Shown here: in pieces, positions 27,046 to 31,729 of the stretch
Numbering within the stretch: the stretch's first letter is position 1
How the letters are laid out: each line of letters begins with the position of its first letter
Virus record (IMG/VR): IMGVR_UViG_3300042321_002027
Strand: one strand, 5' to 3'
DNA from: a virus
Length of the DNA stretch: 64,000 nt
Position numbers and translations under genes: made by a program
The notes under the pieces: model-generated
The model's database searches: none
The model's input: the letters and a program-made list of their open reading frames with translations, nothing else
What the model was told of the DNA's origin: nothing

Positions 27046-27546
27046 TTAAGCTGCATCCTGCTTATGGTTAATGTGCTGAATAGCGTCCTTGTAACGGTCA
27101 GCACAGTAGCTGGCAGCCCAAGCGTTTGGCTTGACCAAAGGTATGATGTTACACATACCACGGATGTAACCAACAGCTTCGTTGATAACGCATGAAGAAC
27201 CGTGTTCCTTGTTTGGATTAATGTCCAAGTGGATTTCAACATCACGGTTTTCAAGAACGTCATGAAGGTCCATGTAAAGTTGAGCGGTCTTCATAACTTC
27301 GTTCATCAGACGCATACGAGGCTTATCCTTTTGCTGATCATAGTCGCGCTCACGCACGATACCACCAAACACACGACAACCATTCTTACCGTTTTTGTGA
27401 ACAACTACAACGTTGATATAGTCTGCATGCCAAACACCGTTGATCTGAAAACGTTCTGAGTCACCACCAAGATAAACTTTAGTTTCTGGTGTTTGAGCGT
27501 CGATAAACGTCTTTACTTCTGCGATGTTTAGTTCTTTCCTGATCAT
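27046..27546 (-). CDS. RNase H-like YkuK-family protein
   Basis: YLG.DS, RL..EV, EIHLDIN, ASYCAD. Confidence 0.75.
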   Translation of the reverse strand: MIRKELNIAEVKTFIDAQTPETKVYLGGDSERFQINGVWHADYINVVVVHKNGKNGCRVFGGIVRERDYDQQKDKPRMRLMNEVMKTAQLYMDLHDVLENRDVEIHLDINPNKEHGSSCVINEAVGYIRGMCNIIPLVKPNAWAASYCADRYKDAIQHINHKQDAA

Positions 27547-27685: not shown

Positions 27686-29110
27686 TTAGTAGTCGTAACG
27701 ATCGTTCATTACTGCCTTCAACATGATCCCTTCAGGTGTGAAGTTTTCCATGTTACCGGACAGAACCGCCTTAACGATGGCTGGAGAGAAACCAGAAACA
27801 AGAGCAGTATCGCGCTTGTCGAACTTAACAGGAACGTTGTCCTTTGCGTTAAGGTTCCAGAACACGATCTTAGGCACCTTGTACCCAGCAGCTTCGAACT
27901 TACGCTCGATCATTTCCATCGCTGAGTCGTCGAAACGAACACAAGCATTGAACTGCATATCCGAAAGGATCAACAGCATGTCAGGCATTTCCTCCTGAGG
28001 CACATTACCCTTGACTGCGACATCAAGGATCTTACGCATTGCTGCGTGAAGATTAGTGCTCATACCCCATTCTGAAGCTGACATCTGCTGGATCTTACCC
28101 AGAATGTTGCCCTTCAAGTGCATAAGCTCAGGCTTGTCAGAGAAAGTCAAGAACGTATCCTTGAACTTACCCTTGTTCTTGTCTGCAAGGTAAAGACCAA
28201 GCGAAACAGAAACATCAAGACAAGTAGTCAACGACTTAGAGCCGTAACCACCTGCAGGTGACATCATTGAGCCAGAGACGTCGACGATTGGCAGGATGTT
28301 CGCATCACCAACGTAGTTAGGCAAAGCCTCCCACTGAGCCACGATGTGGTCAAGGTTGGCCTTTTCATAGCTCAGTCGGTATGCACCGATAACACCCTTC
28401 AGTACATCGTATGGGTACACTGCTCCAGCGTTAACCTTTGCAGTTGGATCACCCTTTACGAGCTTCTCCACCCATTCCTTGTACTTTGGCGTATGACGAG
28501 CAAACGCCTTCTTGTAACGTGAGGACGCAACAGAAGGAACGTGGTTGAAGTTGATTTCATCCCACTTGTTCGCACACATGTTCTGCTCGACAACCTTAGT
28601 CAGTTCGACCAGACGCTTACGGTAGTACTTTGGAGTCCAACCAAGGAACGAACGCAGACGAGCCGCATCCTCACCCTTACGTGGCATCCACTTAGCACAC
28701 AGACCATTGCCTGCATCCAAAGCATCCTTGATCAAAGTGAACGCAACTGCCTCAGCAGCTGAGTCCTTGTCAAAGACCAACAGGTCGTCCCAACGACCAA
28801 GCTCAGGGATCTTGCGCATCAAAGCTATAGCGCGGTCCTCGTCCTTGAGAACAAGCTCACGGAGAATGTCGCGGAACACCTTACGCTCACCAGCGCCGCC
28901 ACGAACGTCGCGAGCCCAAAGAGCGATACGTGCAGCAAGATCCTGGTTCTCTACATACGCAGCAGTGAACGCAGGAACTACGTTCTTACCACGCATAGCG
29001 CCGACGTTGAAGAACAAATCAACGCAAGCGGAAGCAGTAGAAGCTCGAGCCTTCATACCGTTCTCGGTACGAGCTTCCTGGTTCTTAACGGCATTAACAA
29101 AAGTAGACAT
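27686..29110 (-). CDS. DUF2828-family protein with C-terminal vWA domain (TROVE/Ro60-like architecture)
   Basis: TENG, DLFF, RDVRGGAGER, GRWDDL, AKWMPR, DVSGSM MIDAS, LSDMQF, FWNL, SGFS. Confidence 0.82.
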   Translation of the reverse strand: MSTFVNAVKNQEARTENGMKARASTASACVDLFFNVGAMRGKNVVPAFTAAYVENQDLAARIALWARDVRGGAGERKVFRDILRELVLKDEDRAIALMRKIPELGRWDDLLVFDKDSAAEAVAFTLIKDALDAGNGLCAKWMPRKGEDAARLRSFLGWTPKYYRKRLVELTKVVEQNMCANKWDEINFNHVPSVASSRYKKAFARHTPKYKEWVEKLVKGDPTAKVNAGAVYPYDVLKGVIGAYRLSYEKANLDHIVAQWEALPNYVGDANILPIVDVSGSMMSPAGGYGSKSLTTCLDVSVSLGLYLADKNKGKFKDTFLTFSDKPELMHLKGNILGKIQQMSASEWGMSTNLHAAMRKILDVAVKGNVPQEEMPDMLLILSDMQFNACVRFDDSAMEMIERKFEAAGYKVPKIVFWNLNAKDNVPVKFDKRDTALVSGFSPAIVKAVLSGNMENFTPEGIMLKAVMNDRYDY

Positions 29111-29126
29111 TTTCACTTTCCTTTTT

Positions 29127-29186
29127 CAACAGATTGAACTTTTTTCAAATTTCAAGTTTGATTTTTTTAGTTGCTGAACTCAATCT
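29127..29186 (-). ncRNA. CAGCAA-family small RNA E1 (Ser-UGA anticodon stem-loop cargo); 5' leader of DUF2828 gene
   Basis: AGAUUGA-GUU-CAGCAA...UCAAA-CUUGAAA-UUUGA...UCAAUCU-GUUG. Confidence 0.72.
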
Positions 29187-29223: not shown

Positions 29224-29337
29224 CGGGTTTCTATTTTTCGGTGGGAATTGAACCCACTACACTCTGTTTACAAGACAGATGCTCTACCAAATGAGCTACG
29301 ATGGCTTACGCCATTGATTGTTTGCTGTAAGAAACCC
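29221..29337 (-). ncRNA. CAGCAA-family small RNA E2 (permuted tRNA-Thr(UGU) cargo)
   Basis: GGGUUUCU-UA-CAGCAA...D-arm, anticodon arm, T-arm...AGAAACCC-GUUG. Confidence 0.72.
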
Positions 29338-29344
29338 AAAACTT

Positions 29345-29755
29345 TTAGAAACTGGAGTTTTCTAGATCAGACATCTTAGCGTCTAGACGGAAAACTCTCA
29401 TCCGAGGAAGAACCGCTACACGAAAATGAGGGATATAATCGCCCTTCTTCGTTTCGTGGTTATAAACCCATTTCGCGCCATAAACCTGTTCAATTTTAAC
29501 AGCCACAGGCTTGTATTCTGTAACAAGGTCATACTTAGTATGACCACGTTCATCCTTGATGATATTACCTTCAATGTCTCTCGACACAACGCTTCGTGAA
29601 ACATTTTGATAATAAGCTCCTACGAACTTACCCTTACGAAACGTCGTAGACTTCCACGATGTACCAGCATAGATAATATCTTCACCGGGATTAATCGTTT
29701 GACCAAACATATTAACGAATGGTACTACCTTAAGATCTGCCATCACTTTCTCCAT
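29345..29755 (-). CDS. hypothetical protein inside RNA array (start probably 29743)
   Basis: ORF track; GGAG RBS. Confidence 0.6.
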   Translation of the reverse strand: MEKVMADLKVVPFVNMFGQTINPGEDIIYAGTSWKSTTFRKGKFVGAYYQNVSRSVVSRDIEGNIIKDERGHTKYDLVTEYKPVAVKIEQVYGAKWVYNHETKKGDYIPHFRVAVLPRMRVFRLDAKMSDLENSSF

Positions 29756-29765
29756 AATTATAATT

Positions 29766-29953
29766 CAACAGGATCGCGTTTGCTTAACGTGCTACTATTA
29801 CACCAAGGACCCATCAGATACACACGAAGACGATTTGCCGAAGCATTCTTACCCATCTTAAGGAACAGCTCCGTATGTATTTGGTGGATCCCCTCGGATT
29901 TGCACCGAGACCTTTCCTTTTCAGAGGAATGCATTTTATGCGGAAACGATCCT
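29766..29953 (-). ncRNA. CAGCAA-family small RNA E3 (circularly permuted tRNA cargo, YrlA-like order)
   Basis: AGGAUCG-UUU-CCGCAU...T-arm, 3' acceptor+ACCA, linker, 5' acceptor, D-arm...CGAUCCU-GUUG. Confidence 0.68.
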
Positions 29954-29959
29954 AAAACT

Positions 29960-30026
29960 CAACGGGATTGCTTTTTTGCGTTTTTGATTAAAAGTCAAAT
30001 GCATAAAAGTTTGCTGTAACAATCCC
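29960..30026 (-). ncRNA. CAGCAA-family small RNA E4 (Lys-UUU anticodon stem-loop cargo)
   Basis: GGGAUUG-UUA-CAGCAA...UUUGA-CUUUUAA-UCAAA...CAAUCCC-GUUG. Confidence 0.72.
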
Positions 30027-30033
30027 AAAACTT

Positions 30034-30492
30034 TTAGTCTAGTTTAGACCAGTCAAGTATCTTAGCTTTTAACGCCTCATACTCTTCTGACTTATAAGTT
30101 GATCTACCATCTTTACCGTAGTACTTGTGGATGCGTAGCCCTTTCGGTCCATACTTAGCTACCATGTCGATAATTCTCGGCAATATAGCGTTATGGTAAA
30201 GTGCCTCATCATACCTTTTCGATTCGACCTGTTTATAGTTTAGGCCATTTAGAAATGCACGAGCGAGGTGTGTAGCTCTAGATTCATTTCGTACCACTGT
30301 TTTACGGTGATGCTGAAGATTATACCATTTACTATGGTAAGGATAAAACATCCCATCAAACATATTCGCATTTTGAATCTGATGATGTTGTTTTAGCCAG
30401 TTAATCTGGTTACGAATCTTTTGTTCTTCCTTACGGATGATCGCAGGTTCGAGAGCTAGATGTTTAGATTTGATTTTTAATTCGATAGACAT
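30034..30492 (-). CDS. hypothetical basic protein inside RNA array
   Basis: GAGG RBS before MSIELKIKSK; own promoter TTGACT-N17-TAGTAT ending at 30540. Confidence 0.7.
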   Translation of the reverse strand: MSIELKIKSKHLALEPAIIRKEEQKIRNQINWLKQHHQIQNANMFDGMFYPYHSKWYNLQHHRKTVVRNESRATHLARAFLNGLNYKQVESKRYDEALYHNAILPRIIDMVAKYGPKGLRIHKYYGKDGRSTYKSEEYEALKAKILDWSKLD

Positions 30493-30605: not shown

Positions 30606-30681
30606 TGGTGACCCCAGTGGGATTTGAACCCACATCAAGTGTTTTAGAGGCACCTGCATCACCAGATCATGCTCTAGGGTC
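30606..30681 (-). tRNA. tRNA with CUA anticodon (amber suppressor-like)
   Basis: GACCCUA/UGGGGUC acceptor, D-arm, GGUGC-CUCUAAA-ACACU, GUGGG-UUCAAAU-CCCAC, ACCA. Confidence 0.75.
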
Positions 30682-31294: not shown

Positions 31295-31729
31295 TTACTT
31301 AGATTCAGATTTAAAGTCAAGCTTTAAATGACTTCTGTGGACTCTAACCCGTATTTGGTCGTTATAGTAGTCGTTGGATTCAAGTACTCGGGACTCAAAC
31401 TGATACCTCGCCTCAAGGTAGTTGGCGGTACCGCGCGATTTACATAGGTCGAGGATTTCTCTTCTAAAGTTCTCTGCGCCCAACTCGACAACGTCTCGCT
31501 TGAGGGTATCGTTGCTACCATAGTAATCCCGCCAGTCGCTTTCGGTAACGACTTTCTTTTTGCGAGTCTTACCTTTGATCTTCTTAGTGCGAGTTTTCGT
31601 GAGTAGTTTCTTACCAATGTACTTCTTCCCACTTTGGAGGTTAGTGATGAGATAGACAAAAGCAACGTACCCCTGAATGTCCTCATCACTAACTTCCTTA
31701 TCTTTGTATATCCACATAACGTACTCCAA
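31295..31729 (-). CDS. GIY-YIG-like (Seg-type) protein
   Basis: FVYLITN...GKKYIGKK, Y.GS, F.REIL, YYN. Confidence 0.75.
   Translation of the reverse strand: MEYVMWIYKDKEVSDEDIQGYVAFVYLITNLQSGKKYIGKKLLTKTRTKKIKGKTRKKKVVTESDWRDYYGSNDTLKRDVVELGAENFRREILDLCKSRGTANYLEARYQFESRVLESNDYYNDQIRVRVHRSHLKLDFKSESK

What the first reader, a model, noticed from the sequence alone, without database searches (positions are those of the whole stretch)
29766..29953. E3 contains a circularly permuted tRNA in YrlA-like order
Seen (RNA sense): handle, anticodon-like hairpin, T-arm CUCGG-UGCAAAU-CCGAG, 3' acceptor strand GGGAUCC plus ACCA, a roughly 65-nt linker with its own stem (AUACAUACG/CGUGUGUAU), 5' acceptor strand GGGUCCU, UG, D-arm GUGU-AAUAGUA-GCAC, then the handle 3' strand. 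The 3' half of a tRNA therefore precedes the 5' half. Known: YrlA Y RNAs have this T-acceptor-D permutation. Inference: RNase P and 3' processing could excise the linker to give a two-piece tRNA mimic with a CCA end. This supports the Y-RNA interpretation.
Basis: partly seen in the sequence, partly recalled or inferred. Interest (0 to 1): 0.75.

Follow-up and report, generated by a model that had tools for sequence, protein, structure and literature searches.

The report
Permuted whole-tRNA mimic beside phage Ro60
A large phage encodes a conserved small RNA that is a complete tRNA shape written in rotated order and clamped by a short stem. It sits just upstream of a Ro60-like protein gene, so it is most likely a new variant of the known tRNA-mimicking Y RNAs, one that may be cut into two pieces with a chargeable CCA end.

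Summary

I found 13 further orthologous sequences (about 11 distinct) in phage and metagenome contigs, plus about 16 sister units. Over 30 distinct sequences, 95.5% of pair cells are paired, against 70.7% when shuffled. The acceptor helix covaries at 7 of 7 pairs and the handle at 8 of 8.

- **Break point:** it lies between nucleotides 26 and 27, so all four tRNA arms are kept.
- **Linker:** it ranges from about 2 to 128 nt, and ACCA is kept in all but one lineage.
- **Acceptor identity:** G3:U70 with A73 is kept while neighbouring pairs change.
- **Anticodon:** it changes freely, even between near-identical copies.
- **Neighbour gene:** the DUF2828/DUF7788 gene folds like Ro60 and lies 187-663 nt downstream wherever enough flank was held.

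E3 fails the Rfam YrlA model and lacks YrlA's GNCGAA motif. Sister units reach 31-48 bits against a threshold of 69.

Verdict: a new variant of the known YrlA-type Y RNAs. Two-piece processing has a precedent in M. smegmatis but is unproven here. This scan has noted the same RNA family before on other DNA.

The parts
29954..29963 (-).
   Evidence: Tandem units in related loci are 9-10 nt apart, judged from model-hit coordinates. The spacer sequence GUUAAGUUUU was read in L002, L004 and L005. Inference only for processing.
29946..29953 (-). Handle, 5' strand AGGAUCGU
   Evidence: Pairs with 29770-29777. 8 of 8 pairs show changes on both sides and 96.7% of cells are paired over 30 distinct sequences.
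29931..29945 (-). Single-stranded UUCC plus small hairpin GCAU-AAA-AUGC; corresponds to the family motif (C)UACAGCAU
   Evidence: GCAU is invariant in the clade. The hairpin itself is weakly supported, at 75-85% paired.
29914..29929 (-). Anticodon arm: 5-bp stem UUCCU/AGGAA with a 6-nt loop CUGAAA in this copy
   Evidence: Orthologues have 7-nt loops with U33 and R37 and anticodons UGA, AUG, GAU and GUC. L104 differs from the window only by one extra U here.
29910..29913 (-). Variable loop AGGU (A44 to U48)
   Evidence: U48 can pair with A15 (Levitt pair). L003 has the compensatory G15:C48.
29893..29909 (-). T arm CUCGG-UGCAAAU-CCGAG, with G at position 55
   Evidence: 100% paired, 4 of 5 pairs covary. 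The UGC T loop always co-occurs with an AANAG D loop.
29886..29892 (-). Acceptor stem, 3' strand GGGAUCC (positions 66-72)
   Evidence: 7 of 7 pairs covary and 99% are paired. U70 pairs with G3.
29882..29885 (-). Encoded discriminator A73 plus CCA
   Evidence: ACCA follows the 3' acceptor strand in all lineages except the capped L004/L005 form; in L110 a 1-nt deletion shifts the register. It is kept whether the linker is 5 or 124 nt beyond ACCA.
29813..29881 (-). 69-nt linker: hairpin that extends the acceptor stem, ending in CUGAU just before G1
   Evidence: Acceptor plus linker folds as one continuous rod in all six long-linker orthologues. The basal stem covaries and the distal part is unrelated between lineages. 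Other orthologues have no long linker: only 3-7 nt lie between ACCA and G1, and 2 nt in the capped L004/L005 form.
29806..29812 (-). Acceptor stem, 5' strand GGGUCCU (positions 1-7); predicted RNase P site 5' of G at 29812
   Evidence: Pairing as above. The -1 base is U in 10 of 12 lineages. Cleavage is inferred.
29788..29805 (-). U8 G9, D arm GUGU-AAUAGUA-GCAC, G26
   Evidence: 100% paired and 2 of 4 pairs covary. U8:A14 is invariant and G19:C56 is present in 27 of 30 sequences.
29778..29787 (-). Conserved single-stranded motif UUAAGCAAAC next to the handle
   Evidence: AAGCAAA is invariant in the five sequences of alignment A1 (window, L002-L005) and varies slightly in further orthologues. 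Sister units have ACGUAAAUG at the same place.
29770..29777 (-). Handle, 3' strand GCGAUCCU
   Evidence: See the 5' strand.
27686..29116 (-). Ro60-fold protein gene (Pfam DUF2828 + DUF7788, PHROG 850 'RNA-binding protein'); likely protein partner
   Evidence: Pfam and PHROG matches. AlphaFold model with pLDDT 70.9. The top 13 Foldseek PDB hits are all Ro60, the best being Thermus phage phiLo Ro60, E 1.8e-7. Same strand, 654 nt downstream of E3. A homologue lies 187-663 nt downstream of every orthologue with enough flank.

Best explanation
E3 is a non-coding RNA of the Y-RNA / tRNA-mimic kind.

**Architecture (shown).** It contains a complete tRNA body: a 7-bp acceptor stem, D arm, anticodon arm, 4-nt variable loop and T arm. 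The chain is opened between nucleotides 26 and 27. There an 8-bp terminal handle, flanked by two conserved single-stranded motifs, closes the molecule. The acceptor stem is joined through an encoded ACCA and a 69-nt hairpin linker.

**Function (inferred).**
- The handle and its flanking motifs dock the Ro60-fold protein encoded 654 nt downstream.
- The tRNA-shaped part is the effector module presented to tRNA-binding host factors.
- The RNA is released from a longer minus-strand transcript that also carries tRNAs and sister units.
- RNase P cuts 5' of G1 (29812) and 3' trimming back to CCA (29882) removes the linker. This leaves two pieces held together by the handle and the acceptor stem, as happens with M. 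smegmatis YrlA.
- The conserved G3:U70 with A73 suggests the freed end could be charged by alanyl-tRNA synthetase.
- The freely changing anticodon argues that it is a look-alike or decoy, not a decoding tRNA.
For: **Structure**
- The fold has z = -3.96.
- Orthologues score 95-135 bits on the model.
- 95.5% of cells are paired against 70.7% in shuffles, and no shuffle or slid register comes close. Acceptor 7/7, handle 8/8 and T arm 4/5 pairs have double changes.
- Tertiary pairs are kept: U8:A14, G19:C56, and a Levitt pair A15:U48 with a compensatory G15:C48 in L003.
- Joining the two halves in natural order makes ARAGORN call a full tRNA in 10 of 14 sequences tried, 9 of them orthologues. Two of the four failures came from my script picking the wrong T loop.

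**Selection**
- The window differs from L104 by 1 base and from L127 by 3 edits, all in the anticodon loop, while the flanks are about 93% identical.

**Ro link**
- The neighbour gene models as Ro60.
- It lies downstream on the same strand in every locus with enough flank.
- Sister units in the same arrays match Rfam YrlA at E 1e-4 to 9e-8.

**Processing**
- ACCA is kept whether it lies in an open loop or is partly paired.
- The acceptor stem is 7 bp and the -1 base is mostly U.
- M. smegmatis YrlA is cut by RNase P and gains CCA in vivo (PMC4201824).

**Alanine identity**
- G3:U70 with A73 is kept in 7 distinct acceptor sequences while pair 4:69 takes all four Watson-Crick forms.
- The phage's own tRNA-Ala has the same feature.
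Against: - There is no transcript, end-mapping, binding or charging datum for this RNA.
- E3 does not match Rfam YrlA at E <= 10 and lacks the GNCGAA Ro-binding motif.
- The L004/L005 orthologue has a capped acceptor with no CCA. L003 and L155 lack G3:U70. Free ends and alanine identity are therefore not universal.
- The long linker could simply be a long acceptor stem, as in some cyanobacterial YrlAs, and need not be excised.
- T-loop position 55 is G, so one hallmark tRNA contact and the TruB site are altered.
- The window's copy has a 6-nt anticodon loop.
- The protein model is of moderate confidence (pLDDT 70.9, TM about 0.55).
Confidence: 0.6

Rival explanations
1. Decoy for tRNA-targeting defences. 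The RNA's main job is to imitate particular host tRNAs and so soak up or misdirect anticodon nucleases or other tRNA-directed immunity. The Ro60-like protein acts only as stabiliser or carrier. This overlaps with the best explanation and differs in what the effector module does.
For: - The anticodon loop keeps U33 and R37 while positions 34-36 change: UGA, AUG, GAU, GUC.
- Between near-identical copies, every difference lies in that loop.
- A Ro60-like phage protein, Bas63 gp130, was reported to counter the Ppl defence, and the authors suspected that neighbouring 'tRNAs' are Y RNAs (10.1101/2024.10.10.617714).
Against: - No nuclease target or defence system is identified for this phage.
- Loops of 6 nt (window, L130, L002) would make poor anticodon mimics.
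- Loop variation could be neutral drift at an unconstrained site.
- Ppl is not known to act on tRNA.
Confidence: 0.2
2. A true permuted tRNA gene. The handle region is cut out and positions 26 and 27 are ligated, for example by an RNA ligase. The linker is then removed by RNase P and 3' trimming, giving an ordinary decoding tRNA, as in the permuted tRNA genes of the red alga Cyanidioschyzon merolae.
For: - All four arms, the encoded CCA and the tertiary-pair nucleotides are present, and un-permuted joins are called as tRNAs.
- Related phages carry non-permuted versions in which the handle is a hairpin inserted at 26/27: L066 about 245-370 and L067 479-595. The latter scores 45 bits on the tRNA model.
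Against: - The anticodon differs between orthologues and even between near-identical copies.
- Some loops have 6 nt.
- The L004/L005 orthologue has a capped acceptor.
- The handle and its flanking motifs are the most conserved, covarying part, which is unexpected for an excised segment.
- G3:U70 would mis-charge Ser, His or Ile anticodons with alanine.
- G55 replaces U55.
- From general knowledge, no bacterial or phage pathway for this kind of splicing is known.
Confidence: 0.07
3. Decayed tRNA debris. On this reading the region is a degenerate conventional tRNA at 29885-29952 followed by the 5' half of another tRNA, or a tandem-tRNA false positive, with no function of its own.
For: - The Rfam tRNA model gives a sub-threshold conventional cloverleaf at 29885-29952: 26.8 bits against a threshold of 29.
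- In the window, the handle's 5' strand can also pair with the 3' acceptor strand at 6 of 7 positions.
- Chen et al. warn that dimeric tRNAs mimic the T-acceptor-D order.
Against: - The conventional pairing falls to 2-5 of 7 in most orthologues, while the permuted pairing stays at 7 of 7.
- The handle covaries at 8 of 8 pairs.
- The element is better conserved than its flanks.
- It keeps its place next to the Ro60-like gene.
Confidence: 0.03
4. Cis-acting leader of the 136-codon ORF that starts 15 nt downstream (29345-29755).
For: E3 ends 14 nt before that ORF's start codon, on the same strand.
Against: - No relative of that ORF was found in IMG/VR.
- In L002, L151, L130, L112 and others the gap between the orthologue and the Ro60-like gene is only 187-346 nt, which leaves no room for it.
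Confidence: 0.03

Closest known systems
YrlA (Y RNA-like A; Rfam RF02553), the Ro60/Rsr-bound tRNA mimic of bacteria and mycobacteriophages. Closest is M. smegmatis YrlA (Chen et al. 2014, PMC4201824; structure in Wang et al. 2018, 10.1101/312249).
   Same: - Encoded a few hundred nt upstream of a Ro60-type gene on the same strand.
- Terminal stem formed by the 5' and 3' ends.
- T arm, acceptor stem, D arm in that order.
- tRNA tertiary-pair nucleotides, including a covarying Levitt pair.
- Several Y-like RNAs per locus.
- M. smegmatis YrlA has a 7-bp acceptor stem, is cut by RNase P and carries CCA.
   Different: - E3 gives no match to RF02553 at E <= 10; only sister units reach 31-48 bits against a threshold of 69.
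- There is no GNCGAA(N)G motif.
- The break is at 26/27, so a full anticodon arm with a class-I variable loop is kept, instead of the terminal stem replacing the anticodon stem.
- CCA is encoded, not added.
- The linker is a 69-nt hairpin, and 2-128 nt in relatives.
- G3:U70 is conserved.
- Position 55 is G, not U.
- The partner is DUF2828/DUF7788 by Pfam, not TROVE.
Phage Ro60 particles: Thermus phage phiLo Ro60 with Yrl1 and Yrl2 (PMC12135203), and Bas63 gp130, a Ro60-like protein that counters the Ppl defence (10.1101/2024.10.10.617714).
   Same: - A phage-encoded Ro60-fold protein with small structured RNAs encoded beside it. phiLo Ro60 is the best structural match of the window's protein.
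[quoted passage not shown]
   Different: - The phiLo Yrls are described as stem-bulge-stem RNAs with a CGAA motif, and that paper never uses the term 'tRNA-like'.
- No RNA partner has been defined for Bas63 gp130.
Two-piece (circularly permuted) tmRNA of alpha-proteobacteria and cyanobacteria.
   Same: - Gene order is T arm, 3' acceptor strand, CCA, an intervening segment that is excised, then the 5' acceptor strand.
- G3:U70 alanine identity.
- The mature RNA is two base-paired pieces.
   Different: - E3 has no tag reading frame and no pseudoknots.
- It has a real D stem and anticodon arm.
- ARAGORN finds no tmRNA.
- The Rfam permuted-tmRNA model gives 13.3 bits against a threshold of 47.
Permuted tRNA genes of Cyanidioschyzon merolae and some other algae and archaea (from general knowledge; not read here).
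   Same: The 3' half of a complete tRNA is encoded upstream of the 5' half, joined by a linker across the acceptor ends.
   Different: - Those mature through a circular intermediate made by the splicing endonuclease and ligase, and become working tRNAs with fixed anticodons.
- Here the ends form a conserved protein-docking style handle, the anticodon drifts, and the host is a phage of bacteria.

Membership tests
YrlA (RF02553; Chen et al. 2014) | Encoded within about 4 kb of a Ro60 orthologue, on the same strand | tested here: met
   E3 ends 654 nt upstream of the Ro60-fold gene at 27686-29116, on the same strand. The distance is 187-663 nt in all orthologous loci with enough flank.
YrlA (RF02553; Chen et al. 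2014) | tRNA-like module in the order T arm, acceptor stem-loop, D arm, closed by pairing of the 5' and 3' ends | tested here: met
   MFE fold. Covariation in all four helices over 30 distinct sequences.
YrlA (RF02553; Chen et al. 2014) | Nucleotides for tRNA tertiary contacts, including a covarying Levitt pair 15:48 | tested here: met
   U8:A14 in 30 of 30 sequences and G19:C56 in 27 of 30. A15:U48 is present, with G15:C48 in L003. However, 18:55 is A:G rather than G:U.
YrlA (RF02553; Chen et al. 2014) | GNCGAAN0-1G motif near the 5' end (presumed Ro60 contact) | tested here: not met
   The 5' region reads AGGAUCGUUUCCGCAU and the family consensus there is (C)UACAGCAU. There is no CGAA.
YrlA (RF02553; Chen et al. 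2014) | Reaches the Rfam gathering score (69 bits) | tested here: not met
   No RF02553 match for E3 at E <= 10, nor for its orthologues at E <= 1. Sister units score 31.6-48.1 bits.
YrlA (RF02553; Chen et al. 2014) | Bound by Ro60/Rsr in vivo | not testable with these tools
   This needs immunoprecipitation or a gel-shift assay.
Canonical tRNA (RF00005) | Contiguous cloverleaf, 7-nt anticodon loop, U54-U55-C56 T loop | tested here: not met
   Only a 26.8-bit conventional reading (threshold 29), and it is not conserved. The loop is 6 nt in the window and the T loop is UGC. ARAGORN calls a tRNA only after the halves are re-joined.
Permuted tRNA genes (C. merolae type) | 3' half upstream of the 5' half, with the acceptor ends joined by a linker | tested here: met
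   Conserved in orthologues.
Permuted tRNA genes (C. merolae type) | Matures to a working tRNA with a fixed anticodon, through end-joining at a bulge-helix-bulge motif | tested here: inconclusive
   The anticodon varies among orthologues, which argues against a working tRNA. The bulge-helix-bulge motif and any ligation were not tested.
Two-piece tmRNA | Tag reading frame and pseudoknots after the 5' acceptor strand, detectable by ARAGORN or Rfam | tested here: not met
   ARAGORN finds no tmRNA. The Rfam permuted-tmRNA model gives 13.3 bits against 47.
Ro60 / TROVE proteins (for the neighbour gene) | HEAT-repeat ring plus vWA domain | tested here: met
   By fold only. The top 13 Foldseek PDB matches are all Ro60, with E from 1.8e-7 to 7e-4 and TM about 0.5. 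Pfam gives DUF2828 + DUF7788 and not TROVE. Sequence search of the PDB gives nothing.

The most novel reading that the evidence does not exclude
After RNase P and 3' trimming remove the linker, E3 becomes a two-piece RNA with a free CCA end that alanyl-tRNA synthetase charges through the conserved G3:U70/A73. It would be an aminoacylated Y RNA carried by a phage Ro60-like protein. Its anticodon loop would be under diversifying selection so that it imitates whichever host tRNA a defence system attacks.
Probability: 0.15. Interest if true: 0.85.

Novelty: new variant of a known kind. Interest (0 to 1): 0.6.

Why it matters
Ro60/Y-RNA particles are known in bacteria and a few phages, but what the tRNA-like part does is still open.

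This variant keeps the whole tRNA. It encodes its own CCA end, conserves the alanine identity pair, and changes its anticodon between near-identical phages. These features make three questions directly testable:
- Are Y-type tRNA mimics cut into two pieces?
- Can they be aminoacylated?
- Do they work as tRNA decoys in phage-host conflict?

It also names a concrete RNA partner for the DUF2828 family, which is widespread in phages (710 cultured phage records). One Ro60-like phage protein, Bas63 gp130, is already reported to counter a defence system; I did not test whether it belongs to the DUF2828 family.

Tried and rejected
- **DNA search of cultured phages.** blastn of 29300-30100 against the cultured-phage collection found nothing.
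- **The 136-aa ORF below E3.** It has no Pfam or PHROG family and no relative in IMG/VR, so it could not be used for synteny.
- **Whole genome.** None is held for this window.
- **First covariance model.** A four-sequence alignment was made but not used, because the linker columns would have become model positions.
- **My own descriptor scan.** The T arm + 7-bp acceptor + D arm scan gave 415 mostly spurious hits. It was useful only for spotting short-loop acceptor hairpins.
- **Rfam at gathering threshold.** On ten related loci it gave only tRNAs.
- **Sequence search of the PDB with the neighbour protein.** Nothing found.
- **Cultured relatives.** Synechococcus phage BUCT-ZZ01 gave only weak model hits (23 and 16 bits) that could be tandem tRNAs. 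Citrobacter phage Ci1 gave none.
- **Promoter-like site** TTGAGT-18-TAAAAT over the handle (29962-29933). I judged it to be chance because orthologues change both hexamers.
- **Overlapping ORFs** (58 aa at 29758-29934 on the minus strand; 137 aa at 29606-30019 on the plus strand). Rejected as genes because orthologues differ by 1-nt and 61-nt indels inside them.
- **Pairing between the two handle-flanking motifs** (CAU with AUG). Considered and dropped because the window's ACG does not compensate.
- **Recent preprint on three bacterial tRNA-mimic families.** It describes other RNAs.

Full report
**What is there**

- an 8-bp handle, AGGAUCGU with GCGAUCCU
- a small GCAU hairpin
- a 5-bp hairpin with loop CUGAAA
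- AGGU
- the T arm CUCGG-UGCAAAU-CCGAG
- GGGAUCC followed by ACCA, with the CCA end at 29882
- a 69-nt linker
- GGGUCCU, then UG
- the D arm GUGU-AAUAGUA-GCAC, then G
- UUAAGCAAAC and the handle's 3' strand

The surroundings are a tRNA-rich part of a large phage genome. ARAGORN finds 31 tRNAs. The neighbouring genes include ribonucleotide reductase, ThyX, a Clp-type protease and a SegE-like GIY-YIG endonuclease.

**Relatives**

The gene at 27686-29116, on the same strand and 654 nt downstream, matches Pfam DUF2828 + DUF7788 and PHROG 850, 'RNA-binding protein'. It has about 400 relatives in IMG/VR. I fetched 80 loci.

BLAST and nhmmer with E3 found orthologues in L002, L003, L004 and L005. I built a covariance model from these (124 positions, 32 pairs). 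Together with one pattern scan of metagenome contigs, it found ten more orthologous sequences at 95-135 bits: L155, L152, L104, L127, L150, L151, L096, L112, L110 and L130. It also found about 16 sister units at 27-50 bits.

**Comparative support**

Over 30 distinct sequences, 95.5% of pair cells are standard pairs, against 70.7% after shuffling and 37-49% in slid registers. No shuffle out of 500 reaches the observed value on any measure.

| Helix | Pairs with changes on both sides | Cells paired |
|---|---|---|
| Acceptor | 7 of 7 | 99% |
| Handle | 8 of 8 | 96.7% |
| T arm | 4 of 5 | 100% |
| D arm | 2 of 4 | 100% |

This alignment was fitted to the model, which favours the structure. The same compensations are visible in the raw MAFFT alignment.

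Within the E3 clade, the permuted acceptor pairing is 7 of 7 in 11 of 12 lineages. The rival conventional pairing is handle 5' strand with 3' acceptor strand, and it underlies the 26.8-bit Rfam tRNA hit at 29885-29952. It drops to 2-5 of 7 in most lineages. That disposes of the 'degenerate ordinary tRNA plus half a tRNA' reading.

**It is a whole tRNA, opened at 26/27**

The hairpin before the T arm is followed by a 4-nt class-I variable loop (AGGU). In most orthologues it has a 5-bp stem and a 7-nt loop with U33 and a purine at 37.

I joined [5' acceptor strand to G26] to [that hairpin through ACCA] in a script. ARAGORN then called a complete tRNA in 10 of 14 sequences tried. Two of the failures were my own mis-parse of the T loop.

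The tertiary-contact nucleotides are in place:
- U8:A14 and G19:C56
- G26 and A44
- a Levitt pair A15:U48, which becomes G15:C48 in L003

The T loop is UGC, with G55. It always co-occurs with an AANAG D loop, whereas sister units have UUC with GG.

The chain is therefore interrupted between the D arm and the anticodon arm. This differs from YrlA, where the terminal stem takes the place of the anticodon stem (10.1101/312249). A reading in which the hairpin is a long variable arm and the handle is the anticodon stem fits less well. It leaves 11 and 17 unpaired nucleotides at the junctions.

**The linker and the CCA**

The segment between the 3' and 5' acceptor strands, which includes ACCA where it is present, varies widely:

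| Length | Loci | Note |
|---|---|---|
| 2 nt | L004, L005 | capped stem, no CCA |
| 7-11 nt | L002, L155, L152, L151, L110 | short |
| 73 nt | window, L104, L127, L096 | |
| 81-128 nt | L112, L130, L003, L150 | |

In every long form, acceptor plus linker folds into one continuous rod. The basal stem covaries and the distal part is unrelated between lineages.

ACCA follows the 7th acceptor pair in all lineages but the capped one, whether it lies in an open loop or is partly paired. The base before G1 is U in 10 of 12 lineages. All the phage's ordinary tRNA genes shown also encode CCA.

These are the features RNase P uses. M. smegmatis YrlA, which also has a 7-bp acceptor stem, is cut by RNase P in vitro. 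In vivo it is found as two Rsr-bound pieces, one carrying CCA (PMC4201824). Processing of E3 into two pieces is therefore a reasonable inference, but it is unproven. The rod is also long enough to be an RNase III substrate; that is inference only.

1. *G3:U70.* The 3:70 pair is G:U in the window and in L002, L096/L150, L151, L152, L112 and L130. That is seven distinct acceptor sequences, always with A73, G1:C72 and G2:C71. The adjacent 4:69 pair takes all four Watson-Crick forms, and 7:66 also varies. G3:U70 is the main identity element for alanyl-tRNA synthetase (general knowledge), and the phage's own tRNA-Ala has it. The exceptions are L003 (G:C), L155 (A:U), L110 (a deletion) and the capped form.

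2. *The anticodon.* It is not fixed: UGA, AUG, GAU, GUC and 6-nt loops all occur. The window differs from L104 by a single U and from L127 by three edits. All of these lie inside the anticodon loop, while the flanking 400 nt on each side are only about 93% identical. The body is under strong constraint. The anticodon is either free to drift or under diversifying selection.

**The Ro60 link**

An AlphaFold model of the neighbour protein (19-sequence alignment, pLDDT 70.9, pTM 0.68) has Ro60 proteins as its top 13 PDB matches. Thermus phage phiLo Ro60 is first at E 1.8e-7, followed by D. radiodurans Rsr, Xenopus Ro60 and human Ro60. Sequence search of the PDB finds nothing.

A homologue lies 187-663 nt downstream, on the same strand, of every E3 orthologue for which enough flank is held.

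Units in related loci are arranged in tandem with 9-10-nt spacers, read as GUUAAGUUUU in L002, L004 and L005.

The units next to E3 orthologues give significant but sub-threshold matches to Rfam YrlA: 31.6-48.1 bits against 69, with E down to 9e-8. E3 itself gives none and lacks the GNCGAA motif.

Published context:
- YrlA-type RNAs were reported next to Ro60 in 22 phages (PMC4201824).
- phiLo Ro60 binds two phage Y-like RNAs and host PNPase (PMC12135203).
- Bas63 gp130, a Ro60-like protein, counters the Ppl defence, and its authors guessed that neighbouring 'tRNAs' are Y RNAs (10.1101/2024.10.10.617714).

**Mechanism, with status of each step**

*Shown:*
- the conserved, covarying permuted-tRNA fold with handle
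- the encoded ACCA
- the variable linker
- conserved G3:U70
- the variable anticodon
- fixed synteny with a Ro60-fold gene

*Inferred:*
- release from a polycistronic transcript
- docking of the Ro60-like protein on the handle and its flanking motifs
- removal of the linker by RNase P and exonucleases
- possible alanylation
- a role as tRNA look-alike or decoy, or as a tether to tRNA-binding host factors such as PNPase

**Novelty and earlier notes of this scan**

The overall kind, a permuted tRNA mimic beside Ro60, is published as YrlA. This scan has already noted the handle-bearing phage family next to DUF2828 genes on many other genomes, including forms with an internal CCA and spacer. I treated those notes as leads only.

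What this locus adds:
- a well-sampled clade with an encoded CCA
- a linker that comes and goes
- a conserved alanine identity pair
- anticodon changes between near-identical copies

I class it as a new variant of a known kind.

Noticed in passing
The window has acceptor hairpin, D arm, anticodon arm (UGU), T arm. L104 has T arm, 3' acceptor strand, GCCA, short linker, 5' acceptor strand, D arm. This looks like cassette-like cargo replacement inside a conserved handle.
   Followed up: partly
L066:245-370 and L067:479-595: Non-permuted wiring of the same design in related phages. It is an ordinary-order tRNA with free ACCA (or CCCA), in which the handle is a hairpin closed by GCUA or GUUA, flanked by CAGCAA-type motifs and inserted between nucleotides 26 and 27. 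L067:479-595 scores 45 bits on the Rfam tRNA model as a 117-nt tRNA.
   Followed up: partly
L104:1067-1179, L152:155-260, L004:536-646, L110:1596-1679, L008:5567-5680, L096:843-946, L150:1386-1495, L067:2-117: Sister units of the arrays give sub-threshold but significant matches to Rfam YrlA (31.6-48.1 bits, threshold 69). This ties the handle family to YrlA even though no member would be annotated by Rfam.
   Followed up: partly
window 29130-29185 and 29276-29336 (-): Weak Rfam matches of the neighbouring units E1 and E2 to Dictyostelium Class I RNA (about 19 bits, E 2-8). Earlier notes of this scan report the same resemblance for the handle. I did not evaluate it.
   Followed up: no
window 30606-30681 (-): A tRNA with anticodon CUA (an amber suppressor type, labelled 'Pyl' by ARAGORN), two units upstream of E3.
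   Followed up: no
window 27046-27546 (-): ORF with Pfam PF04308 'RNase H-like' (E 5e-18; PHROG 11311, unknown function). It lies between tRNA-Gly and tRNA-Met, immediately downstream of the Ro60-like gene. It could be a nuclease acting on these RNAs.
   Followed up: no
L158:6015-6128 (Citrobacter phage Ci1, OR515478.1 77205-77318): A cultured T4-like phage has a 114-nt feature annotated 'tRNA-Pseudo-AAC / tRNA-OTHER' about 600 nt downstream of its DUF2828 gene. It may be a handle-bearing tRNA mimic mis-annotated as a pseudogene. My model matched only its T arm.
   Followed up: partly
window 31295-31729 (-): SegE-like GIY-YIG homing endonuclease gene lying among the minus-strand tRNA and Y-like units.
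   Followed up: no
cultured-phage collection: The DUF2828 protein has tblastn matches in 710 cultured phage records, all below 60% identity. The organism names begin with Escherichia, Mycobacterium, Salmonella, Vibrio, Listeria, Staphylococcus, Campylobacter and others.
   Followed up: no
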